Source: Bauldia sp. (lineage in GTDB: Bacteria; Pseudomonadota; Alphaproteobacteria; Rhizobiales; Kaistiaceae). Taken from it: DNA of 64,000 nt. The position numbers and the translations under genes were made by a program. Positions 42,838 through 55,661 of the stretch are shown here, one piece after another. The notes under the pieces are model-generated. The model was given only the letters and a program-made list of their open reading frames with translations, was not told the origin of the DNA and did not search any database. Position 1 is the stretch's first letter; each line of letters begins with the position of its first letter. Location of the stretch: assembly GCA_020853895.1 (NCBI GenBank), contig JADYYB010000121.1, forward strand, positions 470 to 64,469, in the 5' to 3' direction.

Positions 42838-43053
42838 CTAGCGTCGGCCGAGCAGGCGCCGGAACAGCATTTCGAGGCCGAGAAATACGGGGACAAAGGC
42901 AAATCCGGCAGGAACAAGAAGGAGCATCCCGACATCGGAGGTCCAGTCGACCAGTGGCCCTACGCTGCGCGCGGTGACGGCAAAGATGCAGAAGGTCGCA
43001 ATGGCAGCGTAGTTGCTGGATCGACGGGCACGTTTGTCATCCGTGGGTCCCAT
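42838..43053 (-). CDS. possible small two-TM membrane protein
   Basis: 71 aa with an ATG start and a weak RBS. Two hydrophobic stretches. It lies downstream of hemerythrin on the same strand. Confidence 0.3.
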   Translation of the reverse strand: MGPTDDKRARRSSNYAAIATFCIFAVTARSVGPLVDWTSDVGMLLLVPAGFAFVPVFLGLEMLFRRLLGRR

Positions 43054-43255
43054 TGCGTTCTCGGGATTCTCAGCCCTGGTCGCTCCGTGAGGCCGCTTCC
43101 GCGTGCGTGAAGCTCATCCTCCTCACCGCCACTGAACGGACGCCCGGCGAAAGACGCCCGAAGCTGCCAATCGAGCCGGTCACTTGGGTTCGTCGACGGC
43201 TGGCTCGATCTCGGTTTCACGAATCACGAAGGGGCGCACAGCCGTCACACGGGCT

Positions 43256-43663
43256 TCAATGGTGTGGGTGTGCTCCGAGCCTCCCATGGAGACGCGCATC
43301 GTGGGTCTTCGAGTGCTCCGTGAACCAATGGTCAAGTTCACGTGCCAGTCGCCCCGAACTGCCGGCCGGGTCGGCCTCATAGCCGTCCATGATGTCGCGG
43401 ATCTCGTCCAGCAGCCGCTCGTGATCGTGCTTGTGCTCGGCGTACTCATCATAGTCGTGTTCGCGCATGAACCGCTCCTCCAGGGCGAAGTGGGAGGAGA
43501 TTGCCCGAAAGATATCGCCGAGAATCGCTTCGATCGGTCGCGCGCCCCCGCCCAGCTTCAGTTCGTCGTCAAGCCGGTTGATGAGGTCCATCATCTCCCG
43601 GTGCTCATGATCGACGGCATCGTTGCCGATCCGATAGTGCTCTTTCCATTCCATGAGAGCCAT
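43256..43663 (-). CDS. bacteriohemerythrin (hemerythrin-like metal-binding protein)
   Basis: 135 aa: MEWKEHYRIGNDAVDHEHREMMDLIN...HFALEERFM...EHKHDHERLL...HWFTEHSKTHD, carrying the H/HxxxE/HxxxH/HxxxxD ligand pattern. AGGAG lies 8 nt upstream. Confidence 0.9.
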   Translation of the reverse strand: MALMEWKEHYRIGNDAVDHEHREMMDLINRLDDELKLGGGARPIEAILGDIFRAISSHFALEERFMREHDYDEYAEHKHDHERLLDEIRDIMDGYEADPAGSSGRLARELDHWFTEHSKTHDARLHGRLGAHPHH

Positions 43664-43674
43664 CTTCTCTGCTC

Positions 43675-44217
43675 CTAGTTCGCCTGGATCGCCCCCACCC
43701 CCTCGTCGCCGTCGGAGGAGAAAACGAAGCCCCCCGCGCCTGTCTTGAAATCGATGACCGCATGTTGTGCCGGCGCCAGCACGACGTGCCGGCTCGCCGT
43801 GTAGTCGAAGCCTTCGGTGGCCGGGTTGTCTCGCATCCGCACTGCGATGTCATGTTCGCCCGCCATCAGCCGGAACTGCTCGTGGATGCGCGACGGGCCG
43901 TCACCGGCAACGCCTGAAGGCGGCAGCTCGCCTTCGAAGAGCCGAGCGCCGTCCACGCTGAGCTCGACGAATACAGGTGGACGCCTCCGCGGGCAGATCT
44001 CGGTGCGGCGCATGTTGGGCGGGAGGTCCGCGATCTCCTCCTCCGTGAGGGGACGGCAAGCCGCCCGTCTGTCGGCACCATGGCTGAACGACATCGTCAA
44101 GACCGCGGTATCGGCAGGGAGTGCCCGGAAGATCGGCTGGTTCGAGATCAGACTCGCGACGCTGATGACGAAAAAGAGAATGCCAAACTGGGCAAGGAGC
44201 CGGGCGCCGAGGATCAT
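43675..44217 (-). CDS. N-terminally membrane-anchored hypothetical protein, 180 aa
   Basis: Its ATG overlaps the upstream TAA (TAATG). It has a single TM (LLAQFGILFFVISVASLI) followed by a soluble domain of unknown family. Confidence 0.65.
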   Translation of the reverse strand: MILGARLLAQFGILFFVISVASLISNQPIFRALPADTAVLTMSFSHGADRRAACRPLTEEEIADLPPNMRRTEICPRRRPPVFVELSVDGARLFEGELPPSGVAGDGPSRIHEQFRLMAGEHDIAVRMRDNPATEGFDYTASRHVVLAPAQHAVIDFKTGAGGFVFSSDGDEGVGAIQAN

Positions 44218-45788
44218 TATCCTGCAACCCCCGTCTCAACCACGTCCGCCAGCTCCTTGGAGCGCAGTGACTGCCGTTCTGCGGAGGGTAGTCGCGAGAC
44301 GATCTCGGCAAACCGGGCAAGCTCTGTCTCTGCGCGGACAACCTCGAGCGGAGAGGCCCATATCTCTGTCAGCCTGTCCCGCGGCACGCGAGCCCTGAGA
44401 TAGGGGTCGCGCTCGCCGGCGAAACGCTCCTTGGTCCAACGAATCCCGAGCCGGTTGTAGCAGGCGTTCTCGGCACATCCCATCACGGCGACGCCATCCG
44501 CCAGGTCCTTGCTGAGGATGTAGTCGATCAGGGAAGGCGGAGACATAGCCACGCACGGCATCACGACCGCGTCCCGCTTCCGGTGCGCGGCCGCGCCATG
44601 GTCGCAGGCCAGGATCAATACGCGCGACTTGCCGGTGAGGTTTGCAGCGACCTTAAGCGTCTGCTCCCGCAATGCGCGGAGAGGAAGATCGGGCAGGTCG
44701 ATGCCGGTCCGCAGTTCCTCGGTGCGCCTGAAGGGGGTCGAGGATGGACAGGCGCCCATGCATACCCCGCACGAAACGCAAAGGTCCGGATTGACCGCCG
44801 CCTGGTGAGGAAAAGGCAGCGCGTCGGTCCGCGGAACGAGTTGGATTGCCTCGTAGGGGCAGTCCTCCACGCACCGGTTGCAGCCATTGCAGTGGGCCAG
44901 ATCGACCTCCGCCGCTTTCGGCCGGCGGAAGGGCGGCAACCACGGCAGGGCCGCCACCATGACGAAGACGGCCGCGAGAGTGGCCAGGATCGCCAGGCCC
45001 GGGACGGAATCGGGAAGCCCGTACAGCGGCAGAAACCACCAGTCCAGGCCTACCTCGGTCGGTATCGTCGCCAGATTTGCCGGACCCTGGCTGAGCGCAG
45101 GCCTTATTATCGCGACCGCTAGGATGGCAGCCAGGATAAGCCCGGCGAGCAGGCGCGGCGGGTTCACCCTGGGCCGCGAGACGCGCCTGATGTGAATCCA
45201 CATCGCCGCAAGCAGCATCAGCGGCACCGCGATATGCAGGAAAACGAGAAGCGTGAAGAAGCGGCTGCTCAGGCTTTGCGGCGTCAGGAAGTTCCGCTCG
45301 ATCGGCTCCCCGAAGATCGGCAGGACATCGAGCAGGCGCGCCGACACGACCGCCACATGCTGGGCCAGCTGGTCCCACACCAGCCAGTACCCGGTGATGC
45401 CGGCCACGTAGATGAACGCGACCAGAGGAACCCCGCTCATCCACGAGAACCATCGCGTCCCGCGGTAGCGATCGAGCGAGAATTCCCGAAGCACGTGGAG
45501 ACCGACCACCAACAGCATCACCTCGGACGCGTAGCGGTGGAAGCTCCGCGTGACCCCGGCGTGGAACCATGCGTTGCGTGTGATCCACTCGACCGATTGA
45601 TACGCCGCCTCGATGCCGGTGTCGAAGAACGCGAACAGGTAGACCCCGCTCACCGTCACGATCCAGAAGAAGAAGAACCCGAGCGCGCCAAGCTGTGAGA
45701 ACGGGTTGAGTGCAGGCGAGAAAAGCCGATCACAGCCCCGCTCGAGGTACATAAAGCCCTGGCGAAGAACGCGCTTGATCCGACTCAA
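44217..45788 (-). CDS. tri-domain redox fusion: dihaem cytochrome b (bc1/b6 N-terminal type) + 2x[4Fe-4S] ferredoxin + MvhD/FlpD-like domain
   Basis: 523 aa. There are two His pairs, each 14 residues apart (HRYASEVMLLVVGLH; LHIAVPLMLLAAMWIH), in cytochrome-b-like helices. CNGCNRCVEDCP and CVSCGVCMGACP follow. The C-terminal segment CVAMSPPSLIDYILSKDLADGVAVMGCAENACYNRLG is typical of the MvhD domain. The start is TTG 45788 or ATG 45752. Confidence 0.85.
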   Translation of the reverse strand: MSRIKRVLRQGFMYLERGCDRLFSPALNPFSQLGALGFFFFWIVTVSGVYLFAFFDTGIEAAYQSVEWITRNAWFHAGVTRSFHRYASEVMLLVVGLHVLREFSLDRYRGTRWFSWMSGVPLVAFIYVAGITGYWLVWDQLAQHVAVVSARLLDVLPIFGEPIERNFLTPQSLSSRFFTLLVFLHIAVPLMLLAAMWIHIRRVSRPRVNPPRLLAGLILAAILAVAIIRPALSQGPANLATIPTEVGLDWWFLPLYGLPDSVPGLAILATLAAVFVMVAALPWLPPFRRPKAAEVDLAHCNGCNRCVEDCPYEAIQLVPRTDALPFPHQAAVNPDLCVSCGVCMGACPSSTPFRRTEELRTGIDLPDLPLRALREQTLKVAANLTGKSRVLILACDHGAAAHRKRDAVVMPCVAMSPPSLIDYILSKDLADGVAVMGCAENACYNRLGIRWTKERFAGERDPYLRARVPRDRLTEIWASPLEVVRAETELARFAEIVSRLPSAERQSLRSKELADVVETGVAG

Positions 45789-45836
45789 CTGCGTGCCACG
45801 TCGCGCTGGCGAGCTGAGATCGACGGACGGCGCATT

Positions 45837-46667
45837 TCAGAGACCCGCGTGCTTCTGCTCGAGCCGGCGATTGTTGCGCCACACCCGAAGGAGCAGGATG
45901 CCCATGATGATCAGGGAGATCGCCCCGATCACGATCCCGAATCCGAGGCTGTAGTCGATACGGTATGCGCCGGTCGTCGCATCGTAGACGGTACAGAGGA
46001 ACTTGACGCGTTCGAGCAATCCGTCCAGCGAGAGGGACCGCAAGCTCGATCCCAGGACCAGTTCCTTGAGGGGCTCCACGAAGACCTGCATGGGAAACTG
46101 ATCGCCGTAGACGTGGCGGTAGACACGACCGTCCGCATCCAGAATCGTCGTCCGCGTCAGATGGTCGAACCCGCCGGCGGTCGGAGCGTAGGAGAAGCCC
46201 ACCTCATCCAGGAAGGCTTCCATCTCCGCGGCCTCTCCGCCGGCCACTGTCCAGGCCGGCTCCCGCGCGATCCCCTGGACGCGTGCGAAGTCGGCAAGCC
46301 TCGCAGGGGTGTCGTTGCGGACGTCGAAGCCGATCGTCAGCACGTTGAACGCGTTGCTGCCCACCGCAGCGCGAGCACTGTCGACGGCGCGTCTCAACGT
46401 CTGCGTGGTCGCCGGACAGATCGTGTTGCAACTGGTGTAGACTAGGCTGATGACCAGCGGCCTTCCGCGATAGTCGGCAAGCGTGAGCGTCTCGCCATCC
46501 GATCGGAAGAACGTCCCGTCCACCACTCGGCCGATGATGGCCTCGCTCCTCGCGAGCGCGGCATCGCGGTCGATACGCGGCAGCTCCTCATGGCCCGCTG
46601 CTGCCGTCGAAAGGACAAGCCCTCCGATCACGACCCCAAGCCGGAAGCGATGATACCTTGTCCGCAT
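45837..46667 (-). CDS. SCO1/SenC copper chaperone with C-terminal TM segment
   Basis: 276 aa with an N-terminal anchor, the thioredoxin-like motif LVYTSCNTICPATT (CxxxC), and a C-terminal hydrophobic helix. Confidence 0.85.
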   Translation of the reverse strand: MRTRYHRFRLGVVIGGLVLSTAAAGHEELPRIDRDAALARSEAIIGRVVDGTFFRSDGETLTLADYRGRPLVISLVYTSCNTICPATTQTLRRAVDSARAAVGSNAFNVLTIGFDVRNDTPARLADFARVQGIAREPAWTVAGGEAAEMEAFLDEVGFSYAPTAGGFDHLTRTTILDADGRVYRHVYGDQFPMQVFVEPLKELVLGSSLRSLSLDGLLERVKFLCTVYDATTGAYRIDYSLGFGIVIGAISLIIMGILLLRVWRNNRRLEQKHAGL

Positions 46668-46706
46668 ACACCCGCTCCACCAGACCAGCGACTGTCGCTG
46701 GACTCC

Positions 46707-48431
46707 TTACCTGAAGAGCCAAACCTCCGATAGATACTTCCAATTTATGAAGTAGTAGAGCAGGAACGCTATGAAGAATACCGCCACCAAGGTGATCGTG
46801 CCGGGCAGCTTGACCGTATTGTAACTTCCATATTGACCCACCACTTTTGCGGCGGAGTGAAGTGGGAATGTCAGTGGGACCGCCTCCCTGTCGAGGCGCT
46901 TTCCGAACAGAACCGTTCCGACGGTGATGGCGATGTAGAGCAGCCCACCGATGGCGGCCAAGATGGCGGAAAGACCGTTGAGCGCCATCATGAGGAAGGC
47001 GCCGGGCGCGATTTCAAAGCCGAGATTGGCGTCGGCGAAGGTTATGTCCCAATGGCGGCGCGGCACGCCCAGGGTGCCAGCGCCCATCATGAACAGGGAT
47101 ATCCCCGCAGCGCCTATACCAAAAATGTAAGGCTGGTACTTGGCCAGCTTCGGCCAGATGATGTCCCGCTGGAAGATCAGCGGAAGCACATAATAAGTGA
47201 TGGCCATGAAGGCGAGGGTCGTTCCGGCCACGACAGTGCCGTGGAAATGGCCCGGAGCGTAGAGCGTATTGTGCATCAGCACGTTGAGCTGCTCCGTTCC
47301 CAGCACGACTCCCGAGATGCCCCCGATGAAGCCGAACAACACCAGCGAAAGGAACATGCCCGAGAAGGCCGGGTTACCCCAGGGAGCCTTGCGCAGCCAT
47401 TCGAACACCCCCTTGGTGAACCCGTTGCGACGCTGAGCCGCCTCGATGGCGCCCGGCACTGTGAGTCCGTGGATCATCGAGGCGAGGACGGCGAGATACA
47501 TGAGGTAGCTCGCGTTGACGATCTTCCAAGCGGAGCTGAGGCCGGGTTCGGCGAGCAGATGATGGGCGGAAGCGAGCTGCAGGAAGAGGATGTAGAGGAA
47601 GAACGCGGTTCGGCTGACCTTCTCCGACAGGGGCTTCGCCCCCACCGTGAGCGCGGCGATCAAATACCAGACGCTGACATGAGCCGCGACGTTGACCTGC
47701 TGGGACGAGTGTCCCATCCCCCACCAGACGACCTTGTACATCAGGGGATCGATGTAGGGGATGAGACCGAGCGACCAGAGAAAAGTCGGAACGAGGATGA
47801 TGGCTCCCGAAGCCAGCGTGAATACCGCGATGATTGCCGCTGTAAGCGCGCCAAAGGTAACGAGTGGAATCGATCCCTGATAGGTGCGCTCCTCACGGGC
47901 AATCACCAGCGTTGCGAAGAACACCCCCAACGCCAGCAGCGCTCCAACCGCGAAGAGGATAAGTCCCAGATAGAAGTGAGGGGCGGCTTCCATCGGCGGA
48001 TAGGAGGTGAACATCACGCTCGAATTGCCTTGCAGCACCGCTACATTGGCAGTGATTGCGCCCAGTACCATGAGCACGAAGGCCAGCCAGGCTATGCGCG
48101 GCGCAGCGAGACGCGAACTGAGGATCACGGCGGACGCGAAGTAGAGCACCGCCACTTCGAAGAAGATGATCCAGAACAGGAGAACGTTGGCGCCGTGGCC
48201 GGTCAGGAGCAGATAGAACCAATCCGCTGGCAGCAGATGCACGGCCGGCCAGCGGGTCAGCGCCACGAGAAGGCCCATGAGCCCACCCCAGGCCAGAAAG
48301 ATCACCGCAACGACCGCATTCGCCTTGATCAATTGCTGCGCTGCAGCCTCGACCCGGAATCCCGTGTAGCCGCAAATCCTCGAGACGACGTCCCGGCGGG
48401 CGCCACTAATCGGAATGTCGGCAGCGGTCAT
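46707..48431 (-). CDS. haem-copper oxidase superfamily subunit I, B-family(ba3)-like, lacking the cross-linked Tyr
   Basis: ATG 48431 overlaps the subunit II stop (ATGA). All six His ligands are present (TGHG; GMGH; SAHH; PGHFH). By eye it aligns along its length with T. thermophilus ba3 subunit I, as recalled from memory. Helix VI reads GHSSQQVN in place of GHPIVY. Confidence 0.9.
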   Translation of the reverse strand: MTAADIPISGARRDVVSRICGYTGFRVEAAAQQLIKANAVVAVIFLAWGGLMGLLVALTRWPAVHLLPADWFYLLLTGHGANVLLFWIIFFEVAVLYFASAVILSSRLAAPRIAWLAFVLMVLGAITANVAVLQGNSSVMFTSYPPMEAAPHFYLGLILFAVGALLALGVFFATLVIAREERTYQGSIPLVTFGALTAAIIAVFTLASGAIILVPTFLWSLGLIPYIDPLMYKVVWWGMGHSSQQVNVAAHVSVWYLIAALTVGAKPLSEKVSRTAFFLYILFLQLASAHHLLAEPGLSSAWKIVNASYLMYLAVLASMIHGLTVPGAIEAAQRRNGFTKGVFEWLRKAPWGNPAFSGMFLSLVLFGFIGGISGVVLGTEQLNVLMHNTLYAPGHFHGTVVAGTTLAFMAITYYVLPLIFQRDIIWPKLAKYQPYIFGIGAAGISLFMMGAGTLGVPRRHWDITFADANLGFEIAPGAFLMMALNGLSAILAAIGGLLYIAITVGTVLFGKRLDREAVPLTFPLHSAAKVVGQYGSYNTVKLPGTITLVAVFFIAFLLYYFINWKYLSEVWLFR

Positions 48432-48982
48432 GGCTGAGCTCCGCCCTCGCTCGCGAGTACGATGATCCGGCCGAGCATCTGATGATGGCCGATCCCGCAA
48501 TACTCATTGCAGACGATCCCGTACTCGCCCGCTTCGGTCGGGGTCACTGTGATCACGTGCTCGTATCCCGGGTGGACTTGGATGTTGATGTTGGTCGGCA
48601 GCAACGAGAACCCGTGCTGCCAATCGGCGGACGACAGATGGATTCGGTAGCTCTCGCCCTCGCGAAGCTGCAGGATCGGCCACCATTCCCAGAGCCGCGC
48701 GAGCATATAGGCATCGCCGCCGACCGGGGGCTGCACGACCGGCACGCCCGCCTCCTCGCCAACCTGATACTGCCCTGCGAAGTCGTAGACCTTCTGCTCG
48801 TACTCGCCAGGGGTTACGCGATAAGTTTCATTGGAGAGGTTCTGGCCGCCGAAGAAGTGCCACGCCACCATGAAGAAGAACATGAACAAACCCCAAAGGA
48901 ACGCGATCGCGATCCAAATGAGTTCGACACGTTCGATCGGCTCGTTCCACCAGACTCGCTTCTCGGGTGAAGCAATAGTCAC
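48428..48982 (-). CDS. haem-copper oxidase subunit II with intact CuA site
   Basis: 184 aa. The GTG start follows AGGGAGG. One TM segment. The cupredoxin motif H-X34-C-X-E-X-C-X3-H-X2-M is present (DWQH...CNEYCGIGHHQM). Confidence 0.9.
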   Translation of the reverse strand: MTIASPEKRVWWNEPIERVELIWIAIAFLWGLFMFFFMVAWHFFGGQNLSNETYRVTPGEYEQKVYDFAGQYQVGEEAGVPVVQPPVGGDAYMLARLWEWWPILQLREGESYRIHLSSADWQHGFSLLPTNINIQVHPGYEHVITVTPTEAGEYGIVCNEYCGIGHHQMLGRIIVLASEGGAQP

Positions 48983-49005
48983 GAGCGGCCTCCCTTACCG
49001 GAATG

Positions 49006-49170
49006 TCAGCCCAGGGGAATGGACACGATCTCCATCACGCCCCAGATGATGTAGAGGACGGTGGGGATCGTGATGCCCAGCGTGAGAAGCAGGAAGGGGT
49101 TGTCCAGGATCCGCTGCATCGTCGGGATCCGATCCTCCTCTGCTCGCGTCGAATCAGGCCGGTCCGTCAT
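49006..49170 (-). CDS. 54-aa single-TM peptide (subunit IIa-like position)
   Basis: ATG 49170 is preceded by GGAGG. The sequence is MTDRPDSTRAEEDRIPTMQRILDNPFLLLTLGITIPTVLYIIWGVMEIVSIPLG. The longer track ORF starts at a TTG with no RBS. Confidence 0.45.
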   Translation of the reverse strand: MTDRPDSTRAEEDRIPTMQRILDNPFLLLTLGITIPTVLYIIWGVMEIVSIPLG

Positions 49171-49434
49171 TCCCGCACCTCCATGGCCGCCCTCCCAGGG
49201 GCCTTGATTCCATTTTATGGCACCACAGGTTTTTGAGGCCCGCAACCAAAAAATGGGACGGGCGCAGTGAAACTACGACTTGACAGGCCACGATTTTGAC
49301 CAAGGCATCCCTGACGCATGGCCTCATCGGAACGTCCTAGTATAAGCTTATGATGATTGAACCTGGCTTCTCGCCAAGTGGGTGGGCTGCGGGAACACTG
49401 GCGAGGCGTGGGCGTATTGTATGGAGGAACTCCC

Positions 49435-49884
49435 ATGAACCATCGAAATCTTGCCACTGTCGTCGCGTTCGTGTTGCTCCTGGGCTTCTCGTCTTCCCAG
49501 GGCGAGGCACAGGAGGCCGACCCCGCGCTGAGGAGTGCCATAGCGGCGGCCGATCCCGGCGCAGGTCAGAGCGTTTCGACGCGCTGTTCCGCGTGTCACA
49601 CCTTTGACGAGAACGGGCAGAATAGAGTCGGTCCCAATCTGTACGGGGTCGTTGGACGGGGGATCGGGGGGAAAGAGGGCTTCAACTACTCGCCACCCTT
49701 TCAGCAGCTCATGGCCGCCGGCGACACCTGGACCTTCGAGAGGCTTGATGGCTTCCTCGCCGATCCCCGGGGCACGATCCCAGGCACCCGCATGGCTGTT
49801 CCTGGAATCACCGATGAAGCGGATCGTCACAACTTGGTCGCCTATCTGCGAACCCTGTCTGCCTCCCCAGTCCTGCTCGAATAG
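49435..49884 (+). CDS. class I c-type cytochrome (c2/c550-like), periplasmic
   Basis: ATG 49435 follows GGAGG. It has a signal peptide, then CSACH, GPNLYGVVGR and a distal Met in GTRMAV. It is divergent from the oxidase operon. Confidence 0.85.
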   Translation: MNHRNLATVVAFVLLLGFSSSQGEAQEADPALRSAIAAADPGAGQSVSTRCSACHTFDENGQNRVGPNLYGVVGRGIGGKEGFNYSPPFQQLMAAGDTWTFERLDGFLADPRGTIPGTRMAVPGITDEADRHNLVAYLRTLSASPVLLE

Positions 49885-50651
49885 CCAGCCTCCGGCTTGA
49901 ATTGCCGGAGCGGCACGGCACGGTGGCCTCTCCGGAATTGAGGGGTCGGCGGATTGACGATCAGGCGCTGCGTTTGGGAGAGGGGACCGCCGGGCAAGGG
50001 GAGAGTTGCCCGGCGGTCAAACGAAGGATCTTCCTTGTCCGTGCGGAGTCCTTCGCGGTTCTGACGACGCCGTGGCAACAGCCAGCGGCGCTTTCGGCTC
50101 GGCAGGTCAATCAGGGTCCGAACGGGCTGAACCGTCGCTTCGAGAGAGCATAGGCTGCTTCCCCCAAATCTCGGTTCAGTCTCTTTCGATCTTGAATCGA
50201 TGCCAGGTCGTCGGGCTCTGGCCACCCTCCCCAAGAAGGGCGCTCCCACTCATCCTGGTCAGGGCATGCTTGCACGGTGCCACCGCGCGACGTGGGCTTC
50301 CCCGAAGGCCATCTCGCAGGTACTGAACGACTCTCTTTCTGGGGCATGGCAGGCCCTAGACTGGGCAGGATGGCCGTCCGCGCATTGATCCCGGTCAATC
50401 CTGAGATCACGTCGCGAAAGAGGTCAGCCCACCGAGAGGCCTCGTCGGTACGGCTGGGCGGGCTCGAGGACTCTCCCGCCCGCTCATGCCCAGCGCCGAG
50501 TGTCGTCGATCGCTCCTACCGGCGCGAAGAAGATCCTGGGCCGCATCCCGACCGTCCAGACTTTGGCAGATCAAGGGCGCCACCTCGACGAGGACCTGGC
50601 GCCGGCACGGCGGGCACGAAGCGATGATCCGCGCCCCACGGAGGGGCCGGG

Positions 50652-51059
50652 TTACTGCAGTACGCGGAAGGCGATGCCGATTGCCAACGCCGCGGCGGCG
50701 AGACAGGTGGGAACGACCAGAACCAGGACCAACGCGGCGCCGCCGGGGATAGGTCCCGTAGCGGTGGCCATTTGTCCCTTCAGGAACTGCCCGAAACCCC
50801 CGCCCGCCCGGCGGAGAAGCATGAAGGCCACCAGCGCAAGGGTGACGACGAAGCCGGTCGCGGCAGCGCCGGTGAAGGCCCAGCCGAGAGCGGCGAACAT
50901 GATCGCATAGATGAGGATCGACCATGCCATGACCCCCGCCGGGAAGTCGGTCGCGACTGGCTTGCCGAGTTCGCGCAGCCAGGGCGAGGTCGTGTGCTTG
51001 ACCGGCGGGATATAAGGAGGAGCATGAACCGTTTTGGTTCGGGCATAGGCGACTTCCAT
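50652..51059 (-). CDS. hypothetical polytopic membrane protein, 135 aa
   Basis: ATG 51059 is preceded by GGAGGGG. It has 3-4 hydrophobic helices. An FNR box is centred 66 bp upstream. Confidence 0.55.
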   Translation of the reverse strand: MEVAYARTKTVHAPPYIPPVKHTTSPWLRELGKPVATDFPAGVMAWSILIYAIMFAALGWAFTGAAATGFVVTLALVAFMLLRRAGGGFGQFLKGQMATATGPIPGGAALVLVLVVPTCLAAAALAIGIAFRVLQ

Positions 51060-51383: not shown

Positions 51384-52349
51384 TCAGTCTTTGCTCCAGA
51401 TCAAAGACTGGGTATCCCTCGTCGGACTCGCCGGTCGCGAGAAGCGGCATGTCTCGCGGAGACCGCGCTCGCTCGAGGCGCCTGCGCCCGCCCCCAGCAG
51501 TCGCTCGCCGCGCTGCGCGGCAAGTCTTCGCAGCGTCACCTTTGCCGCGGACCTGCCAAAGAAATGATAGCCCGAGCCGCCCTCGGCGAGGACGTCGAGG
51601 AAGGCATCCGGATCGGTGATGCGCACGCCGCCGAGGATATGACAGCCGCGCTTGAAGAACGCATCCGGGATCATGGTGACGGTTGGGCCAACCACCACGA
51701 TCCGCGCCGAGGGCTTCGCCAGCGCGATCAGTCCTTCGAGCGTATCGTTGACGAGCGTGGTGCCCGTGACGATCAGGACGTCCGCCAGAGGCACCACTTC
51801 GGGAGCGCGCTCGGCCTCCCGGAAATGAGGCATCTCATGCGGTTTCAGGGCGGCGGGATCCTTTTCCAGCACGAAGTGCCTGGCGCCGATCCTGCGCAGC
51901 TCGCGCATGAAGGGCACGAAAGCTCCGACGACAACAACCGTGTCGGCCGGCCGCACCCCAGCCGCCTCGAAGGCATCGAGGCCCTCGACGGAGTCGAAGC
52001 CCCTTCCCCCTCCCCGCCGCTCCGCGACGAGCTGCGCAAGGGCGTTCAGCGTCGCGATGCCGACCGCCCGGCGGACGCCCGTCTGACCGGCTGCTTCGTC
52101 GAGAAGACCGTCGGCGCGGCGCCCGACCAGCTTGCCTGGAAACGGCATCGCCATCGCCGAGGACGGGCAGCACACCGCCTCGGGGATTTCCTTGATCGGT
52201 GTGGCGCAGCTTCCGGCGTGCCCGGTCGAGAGTTTCACGCCGGTGAAGAAGAGGCCGATCACGGCCCGCTCGACTGCGATCTCGTCAAGCGCGGGTCCCA
52301 GCTCATCGCGGACGATCCCGGCTGTCGTCTCGAGAATAGTGTCTGTCAC
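51384..52349 (-). CDS. DUF4213/DUF364 (putative heavy-metal chelation, Rossmann-like) protein
   Basis: 321 aa with a GTG start: VIGLFFTGVKLSTGHAGSCATP...VVVVGAFVPFMRELR...DVLIVTGTTLVNDTLEGLI...IVVVGPTVTM. Confidence 0.7.
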   Translation of the reverse strand: MTDTILETTAGIVRDELGPALDEIAVERAVIGLFFTGVKLSTGHAGSCATPIKEIPEAVCCPSSAMAMPFPGKLVGRRADGLLDEAAGQTGVRRAVGIATLNALAQLVAERRGGGRGFDSVEGLDAFEAAGVRPADTVVVVGAFVPFMRELRRIGARHFVLEKDPAALKPHEMPHFREAERAPEVVPLADVLIVTGTTLVNDTLEGLIALAKPSARIVVVGPTVTMIPDAFFKRGCHILGGVRITDPDAFLDVLAEGGSGYHFFGRSAAKVTLRRLAAQRGERLLGAGAGASSERGLRETCRFSRPASPTRDTQSLIWSKD

Positions 52350-52484
52350 AAGCGCACCGCCTTTCCATATCGTTGGGCGGGCTCATCAACTTCGCCCTCG
52401 CCCTTCCACCCTTCGGCGGCCAATGACGGCAGCTGCGACTCAGGGGGCTGGAGTAGCCCCGTGCTCGTGCGTCAATCCGCCCGC

Positions 52485-52538
52485 CCGATATATCTACACA
52501 AATATATCGGCGCTGGATATGTCTATTGAAACATATCG
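52485..52538. promoter_or_regulatory. two tandem AT-rich palindromes (Mo-box/ModE-operator-like)
   Basis: IR1 at 52485-52510 is CCGATATAT-ctacacaa-ATATATCGG. IR2 at 52515-52538 is GGATATGT-ctattgaa-ACATATCG. Both have 8-nt spacers. They lie 14-67 bp upstream of ATG 52552. Confidence 0.6.
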
Positions 52539-52551
52539 TGGAGGAAAGAGA

Positions 52552-52797
52552 ATGACCGAGGTCGTGTCAAAGCCCGTTGTTCTGACCAAGATGTGCGAGC
52601 TGCATGGTATCGACATGCCGAAGGAAGGAGAGTTGGCAGAGCGCTTCAGCCGAGCATTCCCATCCGCCAACTACGACCAAAATGCCGGAGAGTGGCGCAT
52701 GGTCTGGAAGAAAGGCGCATACGCCGAATCCAAGGCGCGTCTCGAGGCCTTCTTCGCCGACAACGGGGTTGAGATCCGTCAAGTCGACAGATGCTAG
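52552..52797 (+). CDS. hypothetical protein, 81 aa
   Basis: ATG 52552 is preceded by GGAGGAAAG. Its stop overlaps the permease start. The sequence begins MTEVVSKPVVLTKMCELHGIDMPKEGELAERF.... I recognise no family. Confidence 0.5.
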   Translation: MTEVVSKPVVLTKMCELHGIDMPKEGELAERFSRAFPSANYDQNAGEWRMVWKKGAYAESKARLEAFFADNGVEIRQVDRC

Positions 52798-53852
52798 AGA
52801 ACCCCGCCGCTGTCCGCCTTCCGATCCGAGGCGGCAGCTCTGCCCGCACTCGTGACCGGGCGGTGCTGGCTGCGCTGGTGTTGCTGTTGGGGGCGCTGGC
52901 GGTCTTGTCGATAGGAATGGGCCGCGTACCCATTCCGCCGGAACGCATCGTCGCCATCCTCGGCTCCAGATTGTTGCCCATCGAGCCGTTCTGGACATCC
53001 GGCGAGGCGCTCATCGTCCAGAATGTGAGGCTGCCGCGCATCCTGGCGGCGATCATGGTCGGGGCAGCGCTCGCCGCCGCGGGTGCCGCCTACCAGAACC
53101 TCTTCCGCAATCCGATCGTGTCGCCCGACATACTGGGCGTGTCGGCAGGAGCCGGCTTCGGCGCGTCGCTCGCGGTGATGCTCAATCTGGGCGTCGTCGG
53201 CGTCCAGCTATCGGCGTTCGGCACCGGGCTCCTGGCGGTTGTGCTGTGCTACCTGATCGGCCAGGCCATCAATCGGCATTCGCTGATCGTTCTCGTGCTG
53301 GTGGGCGTTGTCATCGGCGCCTTCTTTCAGGCCATGATCTCGGTGCTGAAGATCGTTGCCGACCCGGTGGACGTCCTGCCCGTCATCACTTTCTGGCTGC
53401 TGGGCGGTCTGAACAAGACCACGCCGGATGACCTGCCTGTGGTTGCGGCGATCATCGGAGCGGGTCTGGCGCTGCTCCATGCGCTGCGCTGGCAGGTGAA
53501 TGTCATGAGCGTGGGCGAGGAGGAAGCCCGCAATCTCGGTATCAATGTCCGGCTGATCAGCTCCTTGCTCGTGCTCGCCGCCACGCTGATGACGGCCGCG
53601 GCGGTCTCGATCGCCGGTATCGTCGGCTGGGTCGGGCTGGTGGTCCCGCATATGGCGCGCATGCTGGTGGGGCCGAGCTTCGAGCGGATGTTCCCTGTCG
53701 CAATCGTCGTTGGCGCGCTGTTCGTGCTGCTGGTGGACGACTTCGCCCGCGCCGCGAGTTCGATGGAATTGCCGCTCGGCATCGTCACCAGCGTGATCGG
53801 CGCGCCGCTGTTCATCGCCTTGCTGATGCGCGCCCGGACAGCGTGGGCGTGA
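52791..53852 (+). CDS. FecCD-family (type II, BtuC/MolB-like) ABC importer permease
   Basis: 353 aa: RLPRILAAIMVGAALAAAGAAYQNLFRNPIVSPDILGVSAGAGFG...TTPDDL...SIAGIVGWVGLVVPHMAR. Confidence 0.9.
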   Translation: MLENPAAVRLPIRGGSSARTRDRAVLAALVLLLGALAVLSIGMGRVPIPPERIVAILGSRLLPIEPFWTSGEALIVQNVRLPRILAAIMVGAALAAAGAAYQNLFRNPIVSPDILGVSAGAGFGASLAVMLNLGVVGVQLSAFGTGLLAVVLCYLIGQAINRHSLIVLVLVGVVIGAFFQAMISVLKIVADPVDVLPVITFWLLGGLNKTTPDDLPVVAAIIGAGLALLHALRWQVNVMSVGEEEARNLGINVRLISSLLVLAATLMTAAAVSIAGIVGWVGLVVPHMARMLVGPSFERMFPVAIVVGALFVLLVDDFARAASSMELPLGIVTSVIGAPLFIALLMRARTAWA

Positions 53853-54652
53853 TGCTCAGGGTCGAGGGCCTCACCTTCTCTTTCCCGCGCGGCGGACGCA
53901 GCCTCGCGGACATCAGCCTCACGCTGTCCCGCGGCGACGTGACCTGCATCCTCGGCCCCAACGGCGCGGGCAAGACCACGCTGATCCGCTGCCTTCTGGG
54001 GGCCTTGTCACCGGCCTCAGGCACCGTCACGGTGGACGACATTCCGGCCCACGGCCTCAAGGCGCGGCAATTCGCTGCCAAGGTCGCTCACGTGCCCCAG
54101 TCCACCCATTCGGTGTTCGGCCACTTGGTCCGCGACATCGTGTTGATGGGCCGGTCGGCCCATCTGTCGATGATCGAGGCGCCCGCCGCCCGCGACCACG
54201 AGATCGCCGAGGCCGCCCTCGAACGAGTGGGCATAGCCGATCTTGCCGACCGTCCGTTCGCCACCGTCAGCGGCGGCGAGCGCCAGCTCTGCCTGCTGGC
54301 GCGCGCGCTTGCCCAGGAAGCGCCGATCCTCATCATGGACGAGCCGGCCGCGAGCCTCGATTTCGGCAACCAGATCAGAGTCCTCGGCATCGTCACGTCG
54401 CTGGCGCGCAGCGGCTACGCGATCCTCATGACCACGCACCATCCCGACCATGCCCTTCTGGTCGGCACCCAGGTCCTCTGCCTGCGCGAAGGACGCATCG
54501 TCGGCGCCGGCGCGCCACGCGCGCTTCTGTCGTCCACTTTCCTCTCGGAACTCTACGACGCGCCGATACGGATGCTCGAAGAGGACGGCGTACAGGCATG
54601 CGTGCCGATCCTGCCCCAAGACCTCACGGAGGAGATTCTGCAAAATGCGTAA
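53852..54652 (+). CDS. ABC transporter ATP-binding protein (BtuD/MolC-like)
   Basis: ATG 53852 overlaps the permease TGA. It has Walker A GPNGAGKTT, signature SGGERQ and Walker B ILIMDEP. Confidence 0.9.
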   Translation: MLRVEGLTFSFPRGGRSLADISLTLSRGDVTCILGPNGAGKTTLIRCLLGALSPASGTVTVDDIPAHGLKARQFAAKVAHVPQSTHSVFGHLVRDIVLMGRSAHLSMIEAPAARDHEIAEAALERVGIADLADRPFATVSGGERQLCLLARALAQEAPILIMDEPAASLDFGNQIRVLGIVTSLARSGYAILMTTHHPDHALLVGTQVLCLREGRIVGAGAPRALLSSTFLSELYDAPIRMLEEDGVQACVPILPQDLTEEILQNA

Positions 54653-55661
54653 GCTCGCACTTGGCGTGATGACGACCCTGGCGATGGGCCTTCTCGCCGC
54701 CCAGGCCTCTGCTCGCGACATCGTCGACATGACCGGCCGCACCGTAACGGTGCCCGATACGATCGATCGCGTCGTCACAATCGGCTCGGTCCCGGTGATC
54801 AACAGTTTCGTCTTCGCCGTCGGCAAGGCGGAGACGTTGGCCATGGGCCTGCCGGCGCGCTTCAACCCGCAGCGCTGGGCATGGCAGTTCGTATTTGCTC
54901 CGCAGCTGGAGGGCGGTCCCGACCTTCAGGACTCGAATTACGGGCCGGACATCGAGAAGATCGTCGACATCGCGCCCGACGTCGTCCTGAGCTTCGAACA
55001 GACGACGGCCGACATGCTCGCCACGGTCGGCATTCCCACCGTGCTCCTGCGGATCCAGGCGCCCGAGGACGTAAAGGATGGCGTCAGGCTCGTCGGCGAG
55101 CTGCTCGGCAATCCGGATATCGGCGAGGAATATGCGCGGTATTTCGATGCCACGCTGGCGCGCATCGCCGCCAAGGTCGACGCCATCCCGCAGGAGCAGA
55201 GGCCGACGGTGCTCTACCTCAACCCGGTCAATGTCACCCAGCCTCACCTGGTTGCCGAGTGGTGGATAAGGGCCGGTGGCGGTCGCAGCGTCACCGACAA
55301 CGGCCGCTCCGAGGAAGTGCTCACCCTCTCGACCGAGACCGTGATCGGCGCCAACCCGGACGTCATCATCGTGCTCGACCCGAGCCATGTCGAAACGCTG
55401 AGGGCGGACGCCAACCTGTCCCAGCTCGATGCGGTGAAGACCGGCCGCATCCTGGTCGCACCGATCGGAGCGCACACATGGGGCAACCGCACGGTCGAAC
55501 AGATCCTCACCGTGCTGTGGGCCGCGAGCGCCTTGCATCCTGACCAGTTCCCGCATTCCGAGCTCGTCGCAGAGGTCACGAATTTCTATCAGACCTTCTT
55601 CGCGACCGAGCTGAGCGACCAGCAGGTCGAGGCTATCCTGTCGAGCACGGCGGCGTCCTGA
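54645..55661 (+). CDS. periplasmic substrate-binding protein, class III (BtuF/MolA-like)
   Basis: ATG 54645 is within track ORF 54450..55661. The signal peptide is MRKLALGVMTTLAMGLLAAQASA. This is followed by DMTGRTVTVPDTIDRVVT...PDVVL...NPDVIIV. Confidence 0.85.
   Translation: MRKLALGVMTTLAMGLLAAQASARDIVDMTGRTVTVPDTIDRVVTIGSVPVINSFVFAVGKAETLAMGLPARFNPQRWAWQFVFAPQLEGGPDLQDSNYGPDIEKIVDIAPDVVLSFEQTTADMLATVGIPTVLLRIQAPEDVKDGVRLVGELLGNPDIGEEYARYFDATLARIAAKVDAIPQEQRPTVLYLNPVNVTQPHLVAEWWIRAGGGRSVTDNGRSEEVLTLSTETVIGANPDVIIVLDPSHVETLRADANLSQLDAVKTGRILVAPIGAHTWGNRTVEQILTVLWAASALHPDQFPHSELVAEVTNFYQTFFATELSDQQVEAILSSTAAS

What the first reader, a model, noticed from the sequence alone, without database searches (positions are those of the whole stretch)
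43256..49245. Haem-copper oxidase operon with SenC, a cytochrome b/ferredoxin/MvhD fusion, an anchored unknown protein and hemerythrin: candidate sNOR-like NO reductase or new respiratory module
**Operon structure.** Seven tightly packed minus-strand genes make up the operon. Junctions include ATGA at 48431/48428, TAATG at 44217, and an 11-nt gap containing AGGAG before hemerythrin.

**Gene order.**
- a 54-aa single-TM peptide
- CuA subunit II, with the H-X34-C-X-E-X-C-X3-H-X2-M motif intact
- subunit I, with all six His ligands
- SCO1/SenC
- a 523-aa tri-domain redox fusion
- a 180-aa anchored protein of unknown family
- a bacteriohemerythrin

**Comparison with known clusters.** The order subunit II - subunit I - senC - orf recalls the norSY-senC-orf1 (sNOR) clusters reported from ammonia oxidisers. 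The hemerythrin and the anchored protein are additions to that arrangement.

**Context.** The neighbours are NO- and denitrification-related (nnrS, hemN, nnrU, narGHJI). No nirK, nirS or norCB is present in this window. To my knowledge no enzyme of this class has been characterised biochemically.
Basis: partly seen in the sequence, partly recalled or inferred. Interest (0 to 1): 0.8.

Follow-up and report, generated by a model that had tools for sequence, protein, structure and literature searches.

The report
eNOR-type nitric oxide reductase operon

Summary
All seven minus-strand genes are real and tightly packed.

**Family.** Subunit I keeps the six histidine ligands. The cross-link tyrosine of oxygen reductases is replaced by glutamine (GH-SS-Q-Q-VN). 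That is the published diagnostic of eNOR; sNOR has asparagine there. In a tree it groups with tyrosine-less relatives from Thermus, Thermomicrobium and a haloarchaeon, outside canonical ba3 oxidases.

**Synteny.** Of 80 species-representative Alpha- and Gammaproteobacterial loci, 67 hold enough downstream DNA. All 67 have SenC, the cytochrome b/2[4Fe-4S]/MvhD fusion and the 180-aa protein in the same order. 65 also have hemerythrin. These genes are core to this operon type, not additions. 60 of 67 carry a haem O synthase gene that this window lacks.

**New detail.** In a more distant relative (its own nearest named hits are Deltaproteobacteria) the 180-aa protein is fused to the C terminus of the cytochrome b/Fe-S protein. 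The two therefore likely form one membrane-spanning unit.

**Prior description.** A 2026 preprint on Ferrigenium already lists most of this operon.

**Verdict.** New member of a known kind. The accessory module's function is open.

The parts
49006..49167 (-). 53-aa single-helix peptide. Probable small third subunit, in the position of subunit IIa of ba3 oxidases.
   Evidence: ORF. A GGAGG lies 8 nt before the ATG. One hydrophobic helix. Present directly upstream of subunit II in 78 of 78 informative loci, with conserved P41, Q44, D48, FLLL, G57, P61, Y65, WG, E72 and P77. A similar small gene precedes subunit II in the Thermus and Thermomicrobium plasmid loci. The subunit IIa analogy is an inference from position and size.
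48428..48982 (-). eNOR subunit II: one N-terminal membrane helix plus a cupredoxin domain with a CuA site.
   Evidence: Weak COX2/Cupredoxin and CoxB/NosZ C-terminal hits. CuA ligands H123, C158, E160, C162, H166 and M169 are at least 95% conserved in 81 sequences.
46707..48431 (-). eNOR subunit I (catalytic haem-copper-type subunit, tyrosine-less).
   Evidence: PF00115 at 6e-64. The best solved relative is T. thermophilus ba3 at E 5e-42, where ba3 H233...Y237 aligns to H241...Q245. All 83 homologous loci read GH-x-x-Q-Q-[IVM]-N. It shares 47-48% identity with the Thermus and Thermomicrobium proteins that carry GHGAQQVN. It sits in the Gln-type clade and outside the B family.
45837..46667 (-). 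SCO1/SenC copper chaperone, presumably for CuA assembly, with an extra C-terminal membrane helix.
   Evidence: PF02630 at 2e-13. C80-x3-C84 and H169 are conserved. A C-terminal helix lies at 241-259 and C225/T226 are conserved. Colinear in 67 of 67 loci.
44217..45788 (-). Six-helix di-haem cytochrome b (bc1/b6-type) fused to a cytoplasmic 2x[4Fe-4S] ferredoxin domain and an MvhD/FlpD-like domain.
   Evidence: Pfam and NCBIfam hits. Best solved relatives are cytochrome b6 (6e-17) and bc1 cytochrome b. Residues 219-295 weakly match b6f subunit IV at 3e-4. Conserved residues are H84/H98 and H185/H199 (13-residue spacing), eight Cys in two CxxCxxCxxxCP motifs, and C395, C412, C438 and C442. D249-W250 are conserved at the PEWY position. 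Hydrophobic helices. Colinear in 67 of 67 loci.
43675..44217 (-). 180-aa protein: N-terminal membrane helix plus a beta-sandwich domain. Partner of the cytochrome b/Fe-S protein.
   Evidence: No Pfam, NCBIfam or PDB sequence match. 980 homologues, all unnamed. AlphaFold2 model with pLDDT 89.6: helix 2-25 followed by eight strands. Foldseek gives only generic beta-sandwich hits with TM at most 0.37. Invariant residues include H46, C54, M69, C75, R50, R55, R70, R77 and R79. The start overlaps the fusion gene's stop (TAATG). It is fused to the C terminus of the cyt b/Fe-S protein in L091 (36% identity, E 3e-22).
43256..43663 (-). Cytoplasmic bacteriohemerythrin (di-iron O2/NO-binding protein).
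   Evidence: NF033749 at 9e-28, above its cut-off. Best solved relative is Methylococcus-type bacteriohemerythrin 4xpw. All seven ligands (H21, H58, E62, H77, H81, H117, D122) are at least 95% conserved. No hydrophobic segment. Colinear in 65 of 67 loci.
49357..49884 (+). Divergently transcribed monohaem cytochrome c with a signal-like N terminus. Candidate electron donor to CuA; membership of the system is inferred only.
   Evidence: PF00034 at 2e-9. Cytochrome c genes lie directly beside the operon in about 14 related loci, upstream or downstream.

Best explanation
**What it is.** The locus is an operon for an eNOR-family nitric oxide reductase of the type common in Alpha- and Gammaproteobacteria.

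**Catalytic core (family assignment shown; activity inferred from the characterised Rhodothermus enzyme).**
- The 53-aa peptide, CuA subunit II and the tyrosine-less subunit I form the enzyme.
- Periplasmic cytochrome c gives electrons to CuA.
- Electrons then pass to the low-spin haem and on to the high-spin haem/non-haem metal site.
- There 2 NO + 2 e- + 2 H+ give N2O + H2O.
- Protons probably come from the cytoplasm through a K-channel-like path (S318, H321, Y256). If so, the step would be electrogenic.

**Assembly (inferred from the family).** SenC loads copper into CuA.

**Accessory unit.**
- The cytochrome b/2[4Fe-4S]/MvhD protein and the 180-aa anchored protein form one membrane-spanning unit. 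This is inferred from translational coupling here and from their fusion into one polypeptide in a more distant relative (L091).
- The unit has Fe-S clusters in the cytoplasm, two b haems in the membrane, and a beta-sandwich domain in the periplasm. The domain's invariant His/Cys/Met/Cys may bind a cofactor.
- My best guess (about 35%, inference only): this is an eNOR-dedicated electron-transfer module. It would oxidise quinol at a bc-like Qo site, or take cytoplasmic reductant, and pass electrons to the periplasmic face of the enzyme, either for turnover or to keep its copper/thiol centres reduced.

**Hemerythrin (inference only).** It is the cytoplasmic O2/NO-binding partner of the MvhD end.
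For: **Family.**
- Gln replaces the cross-link Tyr. This is the stated diagnostic of eNOR (PMC8756737).
- S309-equivalent S318 and Y248-equivalent Y256 are conserved, as reported for eNOR but not sNOR.
- 47-48% identity to Gln-type proteins of Thermus and Thermomicrobium, against 26-34% to the canonical B-family plasmid hits.
- The Thermus protein has the His/Lys low-spin ligand variant that Murali et al. ascribe to some eNORs.
- In the NJ tree the B family is a separate clade at 100% support. The Gln-type sequences are monophyletic at 60%. The window sits in an Alpha/Gamma clade at 92%.
- Published distribution of eNOR covers haloarchaea, Chloroflexi, Thermus and Alpha/Beta/Gamma/Deltaproteobacteria. 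This matches the hits.

**Operon architecture.**
- eNOR II, eNOR I, haem O synthase, sco1, a protein of unknown function and a cyt b + [Fe-S] protein are described for Ferrigenium.
- The same order occurs in Bradyrhizobium, Nordella and 67 other loci.

**Function.** R. marinus eNOR reduces NO and not O2.

**Context.**
- nnrS, hemN, nnrU and nar genes lie in the window.
- nirS and/or nosR lie within 10 kb in 14 related loci each.
- 54 of 81 related loci carry a TTG-N8-CAA (CRP/FNR-type) box upstream, mostly TTGAC-N4-GTCAA.

**Accessory unit.**
- Conserved haem, Fe-S and Cys ligands.
- Six helices place the Fe-S part in the cytoplasm.
- A Rosetta-stone fusion exists in L091.
- The 180-aa protein gives a confident model.
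Against: **Limits on the family assignment.**
- No curated eNOR reference (R. marinus, Magnetospirillum) and no sNOR reference could be fetched. Membership therefore rests on the diagnostic residue, named relatives and operon architecture.
- Support for monophyly of the Gln-type clade is only about 60% in a simple NJ tree.

**Features of this window that do not fit neatly.**
- It lacks the haem O synthase gene found in 60 of 67 relatives.
- It has no CRP/FNR box in its own promoter region.

**Limits on the accessory-unit proposal.**
- eNORs of Thermus, Thermomicrobium and haloarchaea lack the module entirely. It is therefore not needed for catalysis as such.
- The periplasmic domain has no recognisable cofactor motif and no informative structural neighbour.
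- The direction of electron flow is unknown.
- The role of hemerythrin is untested, and it is absent from L091 and from 2 of 67 loci.
Confidence: 0.75

Rival explanations
1. The accessory genes are a maturation or maintenance system rather than a catalytic electron input. In this reading the cyt b/Fe-S protein carries low-potential electrons from the cytoplasm across the membrane. The periplasmic His/Cys/Met/Cys domain uses them to keep SenC and CuA cysteines or copper reduced under NO and O2 stress. This would be analogous to NosR for NosZ, or to TlpA/DsbD for Sco and CoxB (analogies from general knowledge).
For: The genes follow the cofactor and assembly genes (haem O synthase, SenC) in every locus. 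eNORs in other phyla work without them. The invariant Cys pair plus His resembles Sco-type copper ligands. Cytoplasmic 2x[4Fe-4S] plus a periplasmic domain is the NosR layout, and nosR itself lies beside the operon in 14 loci.
Against: The cytochrome b part is bc1/b6-type with a conserved D-W at the Qo-loop position, which points to quinol chemistry. No thioredoxin fold or CxxC motif is present. Nothing was tested experimentally.
Confidence: 0.3
2. The accessory unit is a quinol:hemerythrin redox loop. Quinol is oxidised at the periplasmic side, electrons cross to the cytoplasmic Fe-S/MvhD domain, and they reduce the di-iron hemerythrin. Hemerythrin then scavenges or senses cytoplasmic O2 or NO. 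This would parallel the di-iron NorA/YtfE proteins encoded beside other NO reductases (from general knowledge).
For: Hemerythrin is the only cytoplasmic soluble protein of the operon. It has all seven di-iron ligands and is colinear in 65 of 67 loci. The Thermus eNOR is followed by an Rrf2 regulator and a DUF542 (ScdA-like) gene. MvhD domains act as docking electron connectors (family knowledge).
Against: Hemerythrin is missing from L091 and from two loci that keep the rest. This reading gives the periplasmic domain no role and does not explain the strict linkage to eNOR and SenC.
Confidence: 0.12
3. The enzyme is a high-affinity O2-reducing oxidase of the B (ba3) type, expressed at low oxygen.
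For: The closest solved structure is ba3 oxidase. All six His, CuA and parts of the K channel are retained. The same argument has been made for sNOR in Nitrosomonas. Database annotation calls it a cytochrome c oxidase.
Against: The cross-link tyrosine is absent in all 83 homologues. The protein falls outside the B clade. Purified eNOR had no O2 reductase activity. Neighbours are denitrification genes.
Confidence: 0.07
4. It is an sNOR-like enzyme related to norSY-senC-orf1 of ammonia oxidisers.
For: The subunit II, subunit I, senC gene order is shared.
Against: Gln, not Asn, sits at the Tyr position. The S309 equivalent is present, whereas sNOR lacks it. None of the 24 near-full-length proteins inspected among the 150 nearest 50%-cluster representatives has Asn there.
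Confidence: 0.03

Closest known systems
eNOR of Rhodothermus marinus DSM 4252 (Murali et al. 2024, PMC11214002); also the 'cytochrome a1-like' protein of Magnetospirillum magnetotacticum
   Same: A B-family-derived haem-copper enzyme with a CuA subunit II. The cross-link Tyr is lost and, per PMC8756737, replaced by Gln. It has a K-channel-like path and belongs to denitrification.
   Different: The sequences could not be compared directly here. Many eNOR operons carry a haem A synthase (CtaA), and this clade does not have one in the operon. The SenC, cyt b/Fe-S/MvhD, anchored protein and hemerythrin genes are not part of the published description of the enzyme.
eNOR operon of Ferrigenium straubiae KS (bioRxiv 10.64898/2026.01.22.701106)
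   Same: The order is eNOR II, eNOR I, haem O synthase, sco1, a protein of unknown function, plus a cytochrome b + [Fe-S] protein. All are expressed under denitrifying conditions.
   Different: The window lacks the haem O synthase gene and the second, FAD/NADH-containing cytochrome b protein. The preprint calls the cyt b genes 'rather unusual', whereas here they are universal in 67 of 67 loci. It does not mention hemerythrin or the fusion with the anchored protein.
sNOR (norSY-senC-orf1) of ammonia-oxidising bacteria
   Same: A CuA subunit, a tyrosine-less subunit I derived from the B family, and senC directly downstream.
   Different: sNOR has Asn at the Tyr position and lacks the S309 equivalent. 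This enzyme has Gln and keeps the serine. sNOR has not been characterised biochemically.
Thermus thermophilus ba3 cytochrome c oxidase (B family; 1ehk, 1xme)
   Same: The best solved relative (E 5e-42). It shares the six His ligands, CuA subunit II and a small single-helix third subunit.
   Different: ba3 has the H233-Y237 cross-link and the GHPIVYFW motif and reduces O2. The window reads GHSSQQVN, and canonical B-family proteins in the plasmid search were only 26-34% identical to it.
Cytochrome b of bc1/b6f complexes, and di-haem b plus cytoplasmic Fe-S modules (NarI/NarH, DsrMK, HdrDE) and NosR
   Same: Two bis-His b haems on helices B and D. A D-W motif at the PEWY position. A single-helix-anchored periplasmic partner in the place of the Rieske protein. 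A cytoplasmic Fe-S extension as in DsrK, HdrD and NosR.
   Different: No Rieske CxH...CxxH motif and no cytochrome c1. The Fe-S and MvhD domains are fused to cytochrome b. This architecture has no characterised member that I could find.

Membership tests
eNOR (haem-copper NO reductase, B-family-derived) | Subunit I of the haem-copper superfamily with the six canonical His ligands | tested here: met
   PF00115 at 6e-64. H79, H241, H290, H291, H395 and H397 are invariant and align with the ba3 ligands.
eNOR (haem-copper NO reductase, B-family-derived) | Cross-link tyrosine (His+4 on helix VI) replaced by glutamine | tested here: met
   ba3 H233-PIV-Y237 aligns with H241-SSQ-Q245. All 83 homologous loci read GH-x-x-Q-Q. 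The diagnostic is stated in PMC8756737.
eNOR (haem-copper NO reductase, B-family-derived) | CuA-binding cupredoxin subunit II | tested here: met
   H123, C158, E160, C162, H166 and M169 are conserved. CoxB/NosZ C-terminal hits.
eNOR (haem-copper NO reductase, B-family-derived) | Phylogenetic placement with known eNORs, apart from the B family | tested here: inconclusive
   It lies outside the B clade (100% support) and groups with Gln-type Thermus, Thermomicrobium and haloarchaeal proteins (60% support). No curated reference (R. marinus) or curated eNOR HMM was available.
eNOR (haem-copper NO reductase, B-family-derived) | K-channel-like conserved polar residues, including the S309 equivalent | tested here: met
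   S318 (= S309) and Y256 (= Y248) are invariant, and H321 sits at the T312 position.
eNOR (haem-copper NO reductase, B-family-derived) | Haem A(s) in both haem sites; NO reduction without O2 reduction | not testable with these tools
   This needs purified protein. A haem O synthase gene is in the operon of 60 of 67 relatives but not in this window.
sNOR | Asparagine at the cross-link Tyr position | tested here: not met
   Gln245 occupies that position. Table A4 of PMC8756737.
sNOR | Loss of the S309-equivalent serine of the K channel | tested here: not met
   S318 is present and invariant.
B-family (ba3) oxygen reductase | His-Tyr cross-link motif GHP[ILV]VYFW and placement in the B clade | tested here: not met
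   The motif is absent. The B clade excludes the window at 100% bootstrap.
cNOR / qNOR | Glu at His+4 ligating FeB, and a cytochrome c or quinol-binding partner instead of CuA | tested here: not met
   Gln sits at His+4 and a CuA subunit is present. No cNOR or qNOR appears among the solved-structure hits at E no greater than 0.001.
bc1/b6f-type cytochrome b (for the 523-aa fusion) | Two His pairs with 13-residue spacing on helices B and D | tested here: met
   H84/H98 and H185/H199 are at least 95% conserved. Cytochrome b6 at 6e-17.
bc1/b6f-type cytochrome b (for the 523-aa fusion) | Qo-site PEWY loop and a Rieske iron-sulfur partner | tested here: inconclusive
   Only D249-W250 of 'LDWWFLP' is conserved, and the match to subunit IV is weak at 3e-4. 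The anchored partner lacks the Rieske Cys/His motifs.
MvhD/FlpD domain | Pfam FlpD match above the gathering score, and conserved Cys ligands | tested here: met
   PF02662 scores 27.6 bits against a cut-off of 22.3. C395, C412 and C438 are at least 95% conserved and C442 at least 80%.
Bacteriohemerythrin | Seven di-iron ligands (5 His, Glu, Asp) in a four-helix protein | tested here: met
   H21, H58, E62, H77, H81, H117 and D122 are conserved. NF033749 scores 97 bits against a cut-off of 84.
SCO1/SenC | CxxxC plus a distal His copper site | tested here: met
   C80, C84 and H169 are conserved. PF02630 scores 50.7 bits against a cut-off of 22.8.

The most novel reading that the evidence does not exclude
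The cytochrome b/2[4Fe-4S]/MvhD protein and its anchored periplasmic beta-sandwich partner, with hemerythrin at the cytoplasmic end, could form a previously uncharacterised bc-like complex dedicated to eNOR. It would oxidise quinol at a Qo-type site and send one electron to the periplasmic domain and on to CuA and NO. The other electron would cross the two b haems into cytoplasmic Fe-S clusters. The very exergonic NO reduction would thus be coupled to the generation of low-potential cytoplasmic reductant, or to a redox loop. This would be a new way of conserving energy in denitrification.
Probability: 0.2. Interest if true: 0.8.

Novelty: new member of a known kind. Interest (0 to 1): 0.45.

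Why it matters
**Misannotation.** eNOR genes are routinely annotated as cytochrome c oxidases. PGAP calls this subunit I 'cbb3-type' and subunit II 'hypothetical'. Organisms that carry them are therefore scored as lacking an NO reductase. The genome scan shows the family in at least 590 species-level genomes. These include Bradyrhizobium, Hyphomicrobiales, Rhodobacterales, Woeseiaceae and Steroidobacteraceae, which matter for soil and sediment N2O budgets.

**The accessory genes.** Four accessory genes travel with the enzyme in this clade (65-67 of 67 loci), and the anchored protein is fused to the cytochrome b/Fe-S protein in one relative. This defines a concrete and testable unit. Its function bears on two open questions: how eNOR is supplied with electrons, and whether NO reduction can conserve energy.

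Tried and rejected
**References I could not obtain.**
- No Rhodothermus, Magnetospirillum or Nitrosomonas reference sequence could be fetched.
- The second protein search (P0121) returned only unnamed or 'Deltaproteobacteria' MAG proteins.
- Plasmid hits from Deinococcus, Methylobacterium, Geobacillus and Brevibacillus, checked as possible sNORs, all turned out to be true B-family oxidases with GHP[IL]VYFW.
- The supplementary data of Murali et al. are not held, so their active-site alignment could not be read.

**Literature.** A search for 'ba3-a1', 'mcaI' and 'cytochrome a1-like hemoprotein' gave only unrelated papers.

**The 180-aa protein.**
- Pfam at E = 10, NCBIfam and a profile search of PDB sequences gave nothing.
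- Foldseek gave only generic beta-sandwich hits.
- DOMON, PCuAC, Rieske and cupredoxin assignments were considered and could not be supported.

**Other searches.**
- A full-length homologue of the fusion occurs in only one plasmid record, and there it lies inside an eNOR operon. Occurrence outside eNOR contexts remains untested.
- Rfam found no RNA family anywhere in the window.
- The first bootstrap tree, using Biopython distances, timed out. It was replaced with a numpy Kimura-distance NJ tree.
- Small ORFs between hemerythrin and hemN (42838-43220) and the 135-aa ORF at 50652-51059 have no counterpart in related loci.

Full report
**1.

Seven minus-strand ORFs lie at 43256-49167.
- Junctions are an ATGA overlap between subunits II and I, a TAATG overlap between the fusion and the 180-aa gene, and gaps of 11, 23, 39 and 48 nt elsewhere.
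- The terminator scan found only two weak sites. Both lie inside the subunit I coding region, and the count is below the shuffle expectation.

Domain searches confirm the assignments.
- Subunit I is COX1 at 6e-64.
- Subunit II gives weak COX2/cupredoxin hits.
- SenC is SCO1/SenC.
- The 523-aa protein has Cytochrome_B, two 4Fe-4S motifs and FlpD (MvhD).
- The last gene is a bacteriohemerythrin scoring above the NCBIfam cut-off.
- The peptide and the 180-aa protein match no family, even at E = 10.

The CuA motif and the six histidines of subunit I are intact and conserved. The neighbours are nnrS, hemN, nnrU, moaA/mobB/moeA, an MFS (narK-like) gene and narGHJI.

**2. The enzyme is an eNOR, not an sNOR**

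The closest solved structures are B-family ba3 oxidases (E about 5e-42).
- In that alignment the copper ligand H233 and the cross-linked Y237 of ba3 pair with H241 and Q245 of the window protein. The motif reads GH-SS-Q-Q-VN.
- Published work gives the residue at this position as the family diagnostic. It is Tyr in oxygen reductases, Glu in cNOR/qNOR, Asn in sNOR and CuANOR, and Gln in eNOR (Table A4 and text of PMC8756737).
- Murali et al. add that the S309-equivalent serine of the K channel is kept in eNOR and bNOR but missing in sNOR. The window has S318 at that position, invariant among relatives.

I searched 1.84 billion 50%-cluster representatives and inspected the 24 near-full-length hits among the best 150.
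- The nearest full-length clusters share GH-x-x-Q-Q-[VI]-N. These are P0121 at 55% and a Natrarchaeobius haloarchaeal protein at 39%. A truncated representative, P0123, also carries the motif.
- The next group keeps the tyrosine (GH-x-x-Q-Y-[VI]-N). It includes Hodarchaeales and Thermoproteota proteins. It probably corresponds to the 'K family' of oxygen reductases said to cluster with eNOR.
- True B-family proteins (GHP[LIV]VYFW) appear only at 27-35% identity.
- None of these 24 has Asn at the Tyr position.

Named relatives came from the plasmid collection.
- Thermus thermophilus plasmids carry a 48%-identical protein reading GHGAQQVN, beside nirS and a multicopper (nirK-like) gene.
- The Thermomicrobium roseum megaplasmid carries a 47%-identical one, followed by a haem O synthase gene.
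- The Thermus protein has Lys instead of the second His of the helix X H-x-H motif. This is the His/Lys low-spin haem ligation that Murali et al. describe for some eNORs.
- A Thermus sequence is also part of the published eNOR tree, which places eNOR in haloarchaea, Chloroflexi and Alpha-, Beta-, Gamma- and Deltaproteobacteria.

A bootstrapped neighbour-joining tree of 40 sequences gave the following.
- Canonical B oxidases form a separate clade with 100% support.
- All Gln-type sequences form one clade with 60% support.
- The window sits inside an Alpha/Gammaproteobacterial subclade with 92% support.

The sNOR label is not met either.

R. marinus eNOR has been purified. It reduces NO (kcat 0.68 per s at 25 C), does not reduce O2, and contains haem A(s). 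The class has therefore been characterised. Another paper notes that the alphaproteobacterial 'ba3-a1' subtype was renamed eNOR.

**3. The whole operon is a widespread conserved type**

The genome scan found at least 590 species-level genomes encoding a relative. The best 80 loci (69-80% identity) are from two groups.
- Alphaproteobacteria: Bradyrhizobium, Xanthobacteraceae, Hyphomicrobium, Aurantimonas, Rhodobacterales, Sphingomonadaceae, Acetobacteraceae.
- Gammaproteobacteria: Steroidobacteraceae, Woeseiaceae, Nevskiaceae.

I ran tblastn of each window protein against these loci.
- The peptide and subunit II lie upstream in 78 of 78 informative loci.
- Of the 67 loci with at least 6.1 kb downstream, all 67 have SenC, the fusion and the 180-aa gene in the same order.
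- 65 of the 67 also have hemerythrin.
- 60 of the 67 carry a UbiA-family haem O synthase gene between subunit I and SenC. The window and seven of the 67 lack it. Three shorter loci (L066, L067, L072) lack it too.

Gene calls with Pfam labels in Bradyrhizobium arachidis and Nordella show the same picture. There the operon lies beside nosR-apbE-nirS and narGHJI respectively.
- Within 10 kb, 14 loci have a nirS homologue (at least 40% identity) and 14 have nosR.
- 54 of 81 loci carry a TTG-N8-CAA box, mostly TTGAC-N4-GTCAA, 60-220 nt upstream of the peptide gene. This is the CRP/FNR (FNR/Dnr/NnrR) type of site.
- The window has no such box in its own 190-nt promoter region. It does have perfect boxes upstream of nnrS and nnrU.

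A May 2026 preprint describes the Ferrigenium straubiae eNOR operon. It lists eNOR II, eNOR I, haem O synthase, sco1 and a 'scaffold protein of unknown function', and calls this 'a very common observation'. It adds two 'rather unusual' cytochrome b + [Fe-S] genes, all expressed under denitrifying conditions. The architecture is thus partly described already. Hemerythrin is not mentioned there.

**4. The accessory proteins**

*The 523-aa fusion.*
- It has four conserved histidines in two pairs with 13-residue spacing (H84/H98, H185/H199), which is the bc1/b6 pattern for two b haems.
- It has two CxxCxxCxxxCP motifs and four conserved cysteines in the MvhD-like part.
- Six hydrophobic helices put both termini, and therefore the Fe-S domains, in the cytoplasm. 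This assumes the orientation of cytochrome b.
- Cytochrome b6 is the best solved relative (6e-17).
- Residues 219-295 weakly resemble b6f subunit IV (3e-4).
- A conserved D249-W250 sits where the Qo-site PEWY loop would be.

*The 180-aa protein.*
- It has 980 unnamed homologues.
- Its AlphaFold2 model is confident (pLDDT 89.6). It shows one N-terminal membrane helix followed by an eight-stranded beta-sandwich.
- Foldseek returns only generic sandwich domains.
- The most conserved part is a long loop carrying invariant H46, C54, M69 and C75 and several arginines.

*The fusion event.* In a more distant relative (L091) the two proteins are one 715-aa polypeptide. L091 is a metagenome contig whose subunit I, P0121, has Deltaproteobacteria MAG proteins as its nearest named relatives.
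- Residues 48-535 match the fusion (E 1e-90).
- Residues 558-689 match the 180-aa protein (36% identity, E 3e-22), with H, C, M and C retained.
- Together with the TAATG overlap here, this argues that they form one unit.
- The extra helix follows a cytoplasmic domain, so the sandwich domain should be periplasmic.

*Hemerythrin and SenC.*
- Hemerythrin has all seven di-iron ligands and no membrane segment, so it is cytoplasmic.
- SenC has the CxxxC/His site and an unusual C-terminal helix.

Thermus, Thermomicrobium and haloarchaeal eNOR loci have none of these four genes. They are accessory to catalysis and specific to the proteobacterial lineage.

**5. Mechanism**

*Shown.* Family features, gene order, conservation, ligand sets, and the fusion event.

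*Inferred from the characterised family.* NO reduction at the haem/non-haem metal site, with electrons arriving from cytochrome c through CuA. A cytochrome c gene is divergently placed at 49357-49884. Proton uptake would run through a K-like channel.

*Inferred only.* The role of the accessory unit.
- Its anatomy is cytoplasmic Fe-S, two transmembrane haems, a Qo-like loop and a periplasmic domain. This is the anatomy of a transmembrane electron conduit.
- I rate an eNOR-dedicated electron-supply role, from quinol or cytoplasmic reductant to the periplasmic face, as most likely at about 35%.
- A NosR/TlpA-like maintenance role comes close behind at about 30%.
- A quinol:hemerythrin redox loop is third at about 12%.
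- The preprint's idea of quinol:NAD+ reverse electron flow applies to a paralogue with FAD and NADH domains, which this window lacks.

**6. Verdict**

The finding is real.
- The enzyme is a new member of a known, characterised family.
- The operon is of a type already sketched in the literature.
- This analysis adds three things: the near-universal linkage of the four accessory genes in Alpha- and Gammaproteobacteria, the Rosetta-stone fusion of the anchored protein with the cytochrome b/Fe-S protein, and the conserved ligand sets.
- The function of the accessory module remains a genuine open question of moderate interest.

Noticed in passing
window 31262-32764 (-): The nitrate reductase gamma subunit NarI (PF02665, aa 3-210) is fused to two cytochrome c domains (aa about 300-483), giving a 500-aa protein. 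In the related Nordella locus NarI is an ordinary 239-aa protein. This suggests a direct link between Nar and periplasmic c-type cytochromes.
   Followed up: partly
window 50385-50398, within 49885-50650: A perfect CRP/FNR-type box (TTGATCCCGGTCAA) sits in a stretch of about 760 nt with no convincing ORF and no Rfam match. The stretch lies between the cytochrome c gene and a 135-aa membrane ORF. What it controls is unknown.
   Followed up: partly
window 40044, 24058 and 24868: Perfect TTGAY-N4-RTCAA boxes lie upstream of nnrS (40164), nnrU (24099) and a BTAD/winged-helix regulator gene (24907). The eNOR operon's own promoter region (49168-49356) has none, although 54 of 81 related loci do.
   Followed up: partly
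window 46668-46706: Only 39 nt separate subunit I from SenC. 60 of 67 related loci have a UbiA-family haem O synthase gene at this point. The nearest relatives (Nordella, L005) have it, so its absence here looks like an independent loss. No UbiA homologue is found elsewhere in the window.
   Followed up: partly
L091 5844-7337: In the more distant relative L091, a second, weakly COX1-like 497-aa gene lies directly upstream of the peptide gene of the eNOR operon. nirS and nap genes are next to it.
   Followed up: no
L084 10724-11394 (Thermus thermophilus plasmid): The Thermus eNOR genes are followed by an Rrf2-family regulator and a DUF542 (ScdA N-terminal-like) gene. The locus lies beside nirS and a multicopper oxidase. 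Subunit I there has Lys in place of the second helix X histidine.
   Followed up: partly
window 45837-46667 (-): SenC carries a C-terminal membrane helix (aa 241-259) and a conserved C225-T226 in addition to the usual CxxxC/His site.
   Followed up: no
window 51384-55661: A DUF364/DUF4213 'putative heavy-metal chelation' gene is followed on the other strand by FecCD-type permease and ABC ATPase genes. A molybdopterin oxidoreductase gene lies at 56149-58563.
   Followed up: no
L094 (Defluviimonas plasmid NZ_CP156080.1): The complete eight-gene operon is plasmid-borne in Defluviimonas. [quoted passage not shown]
   Followed up: yes
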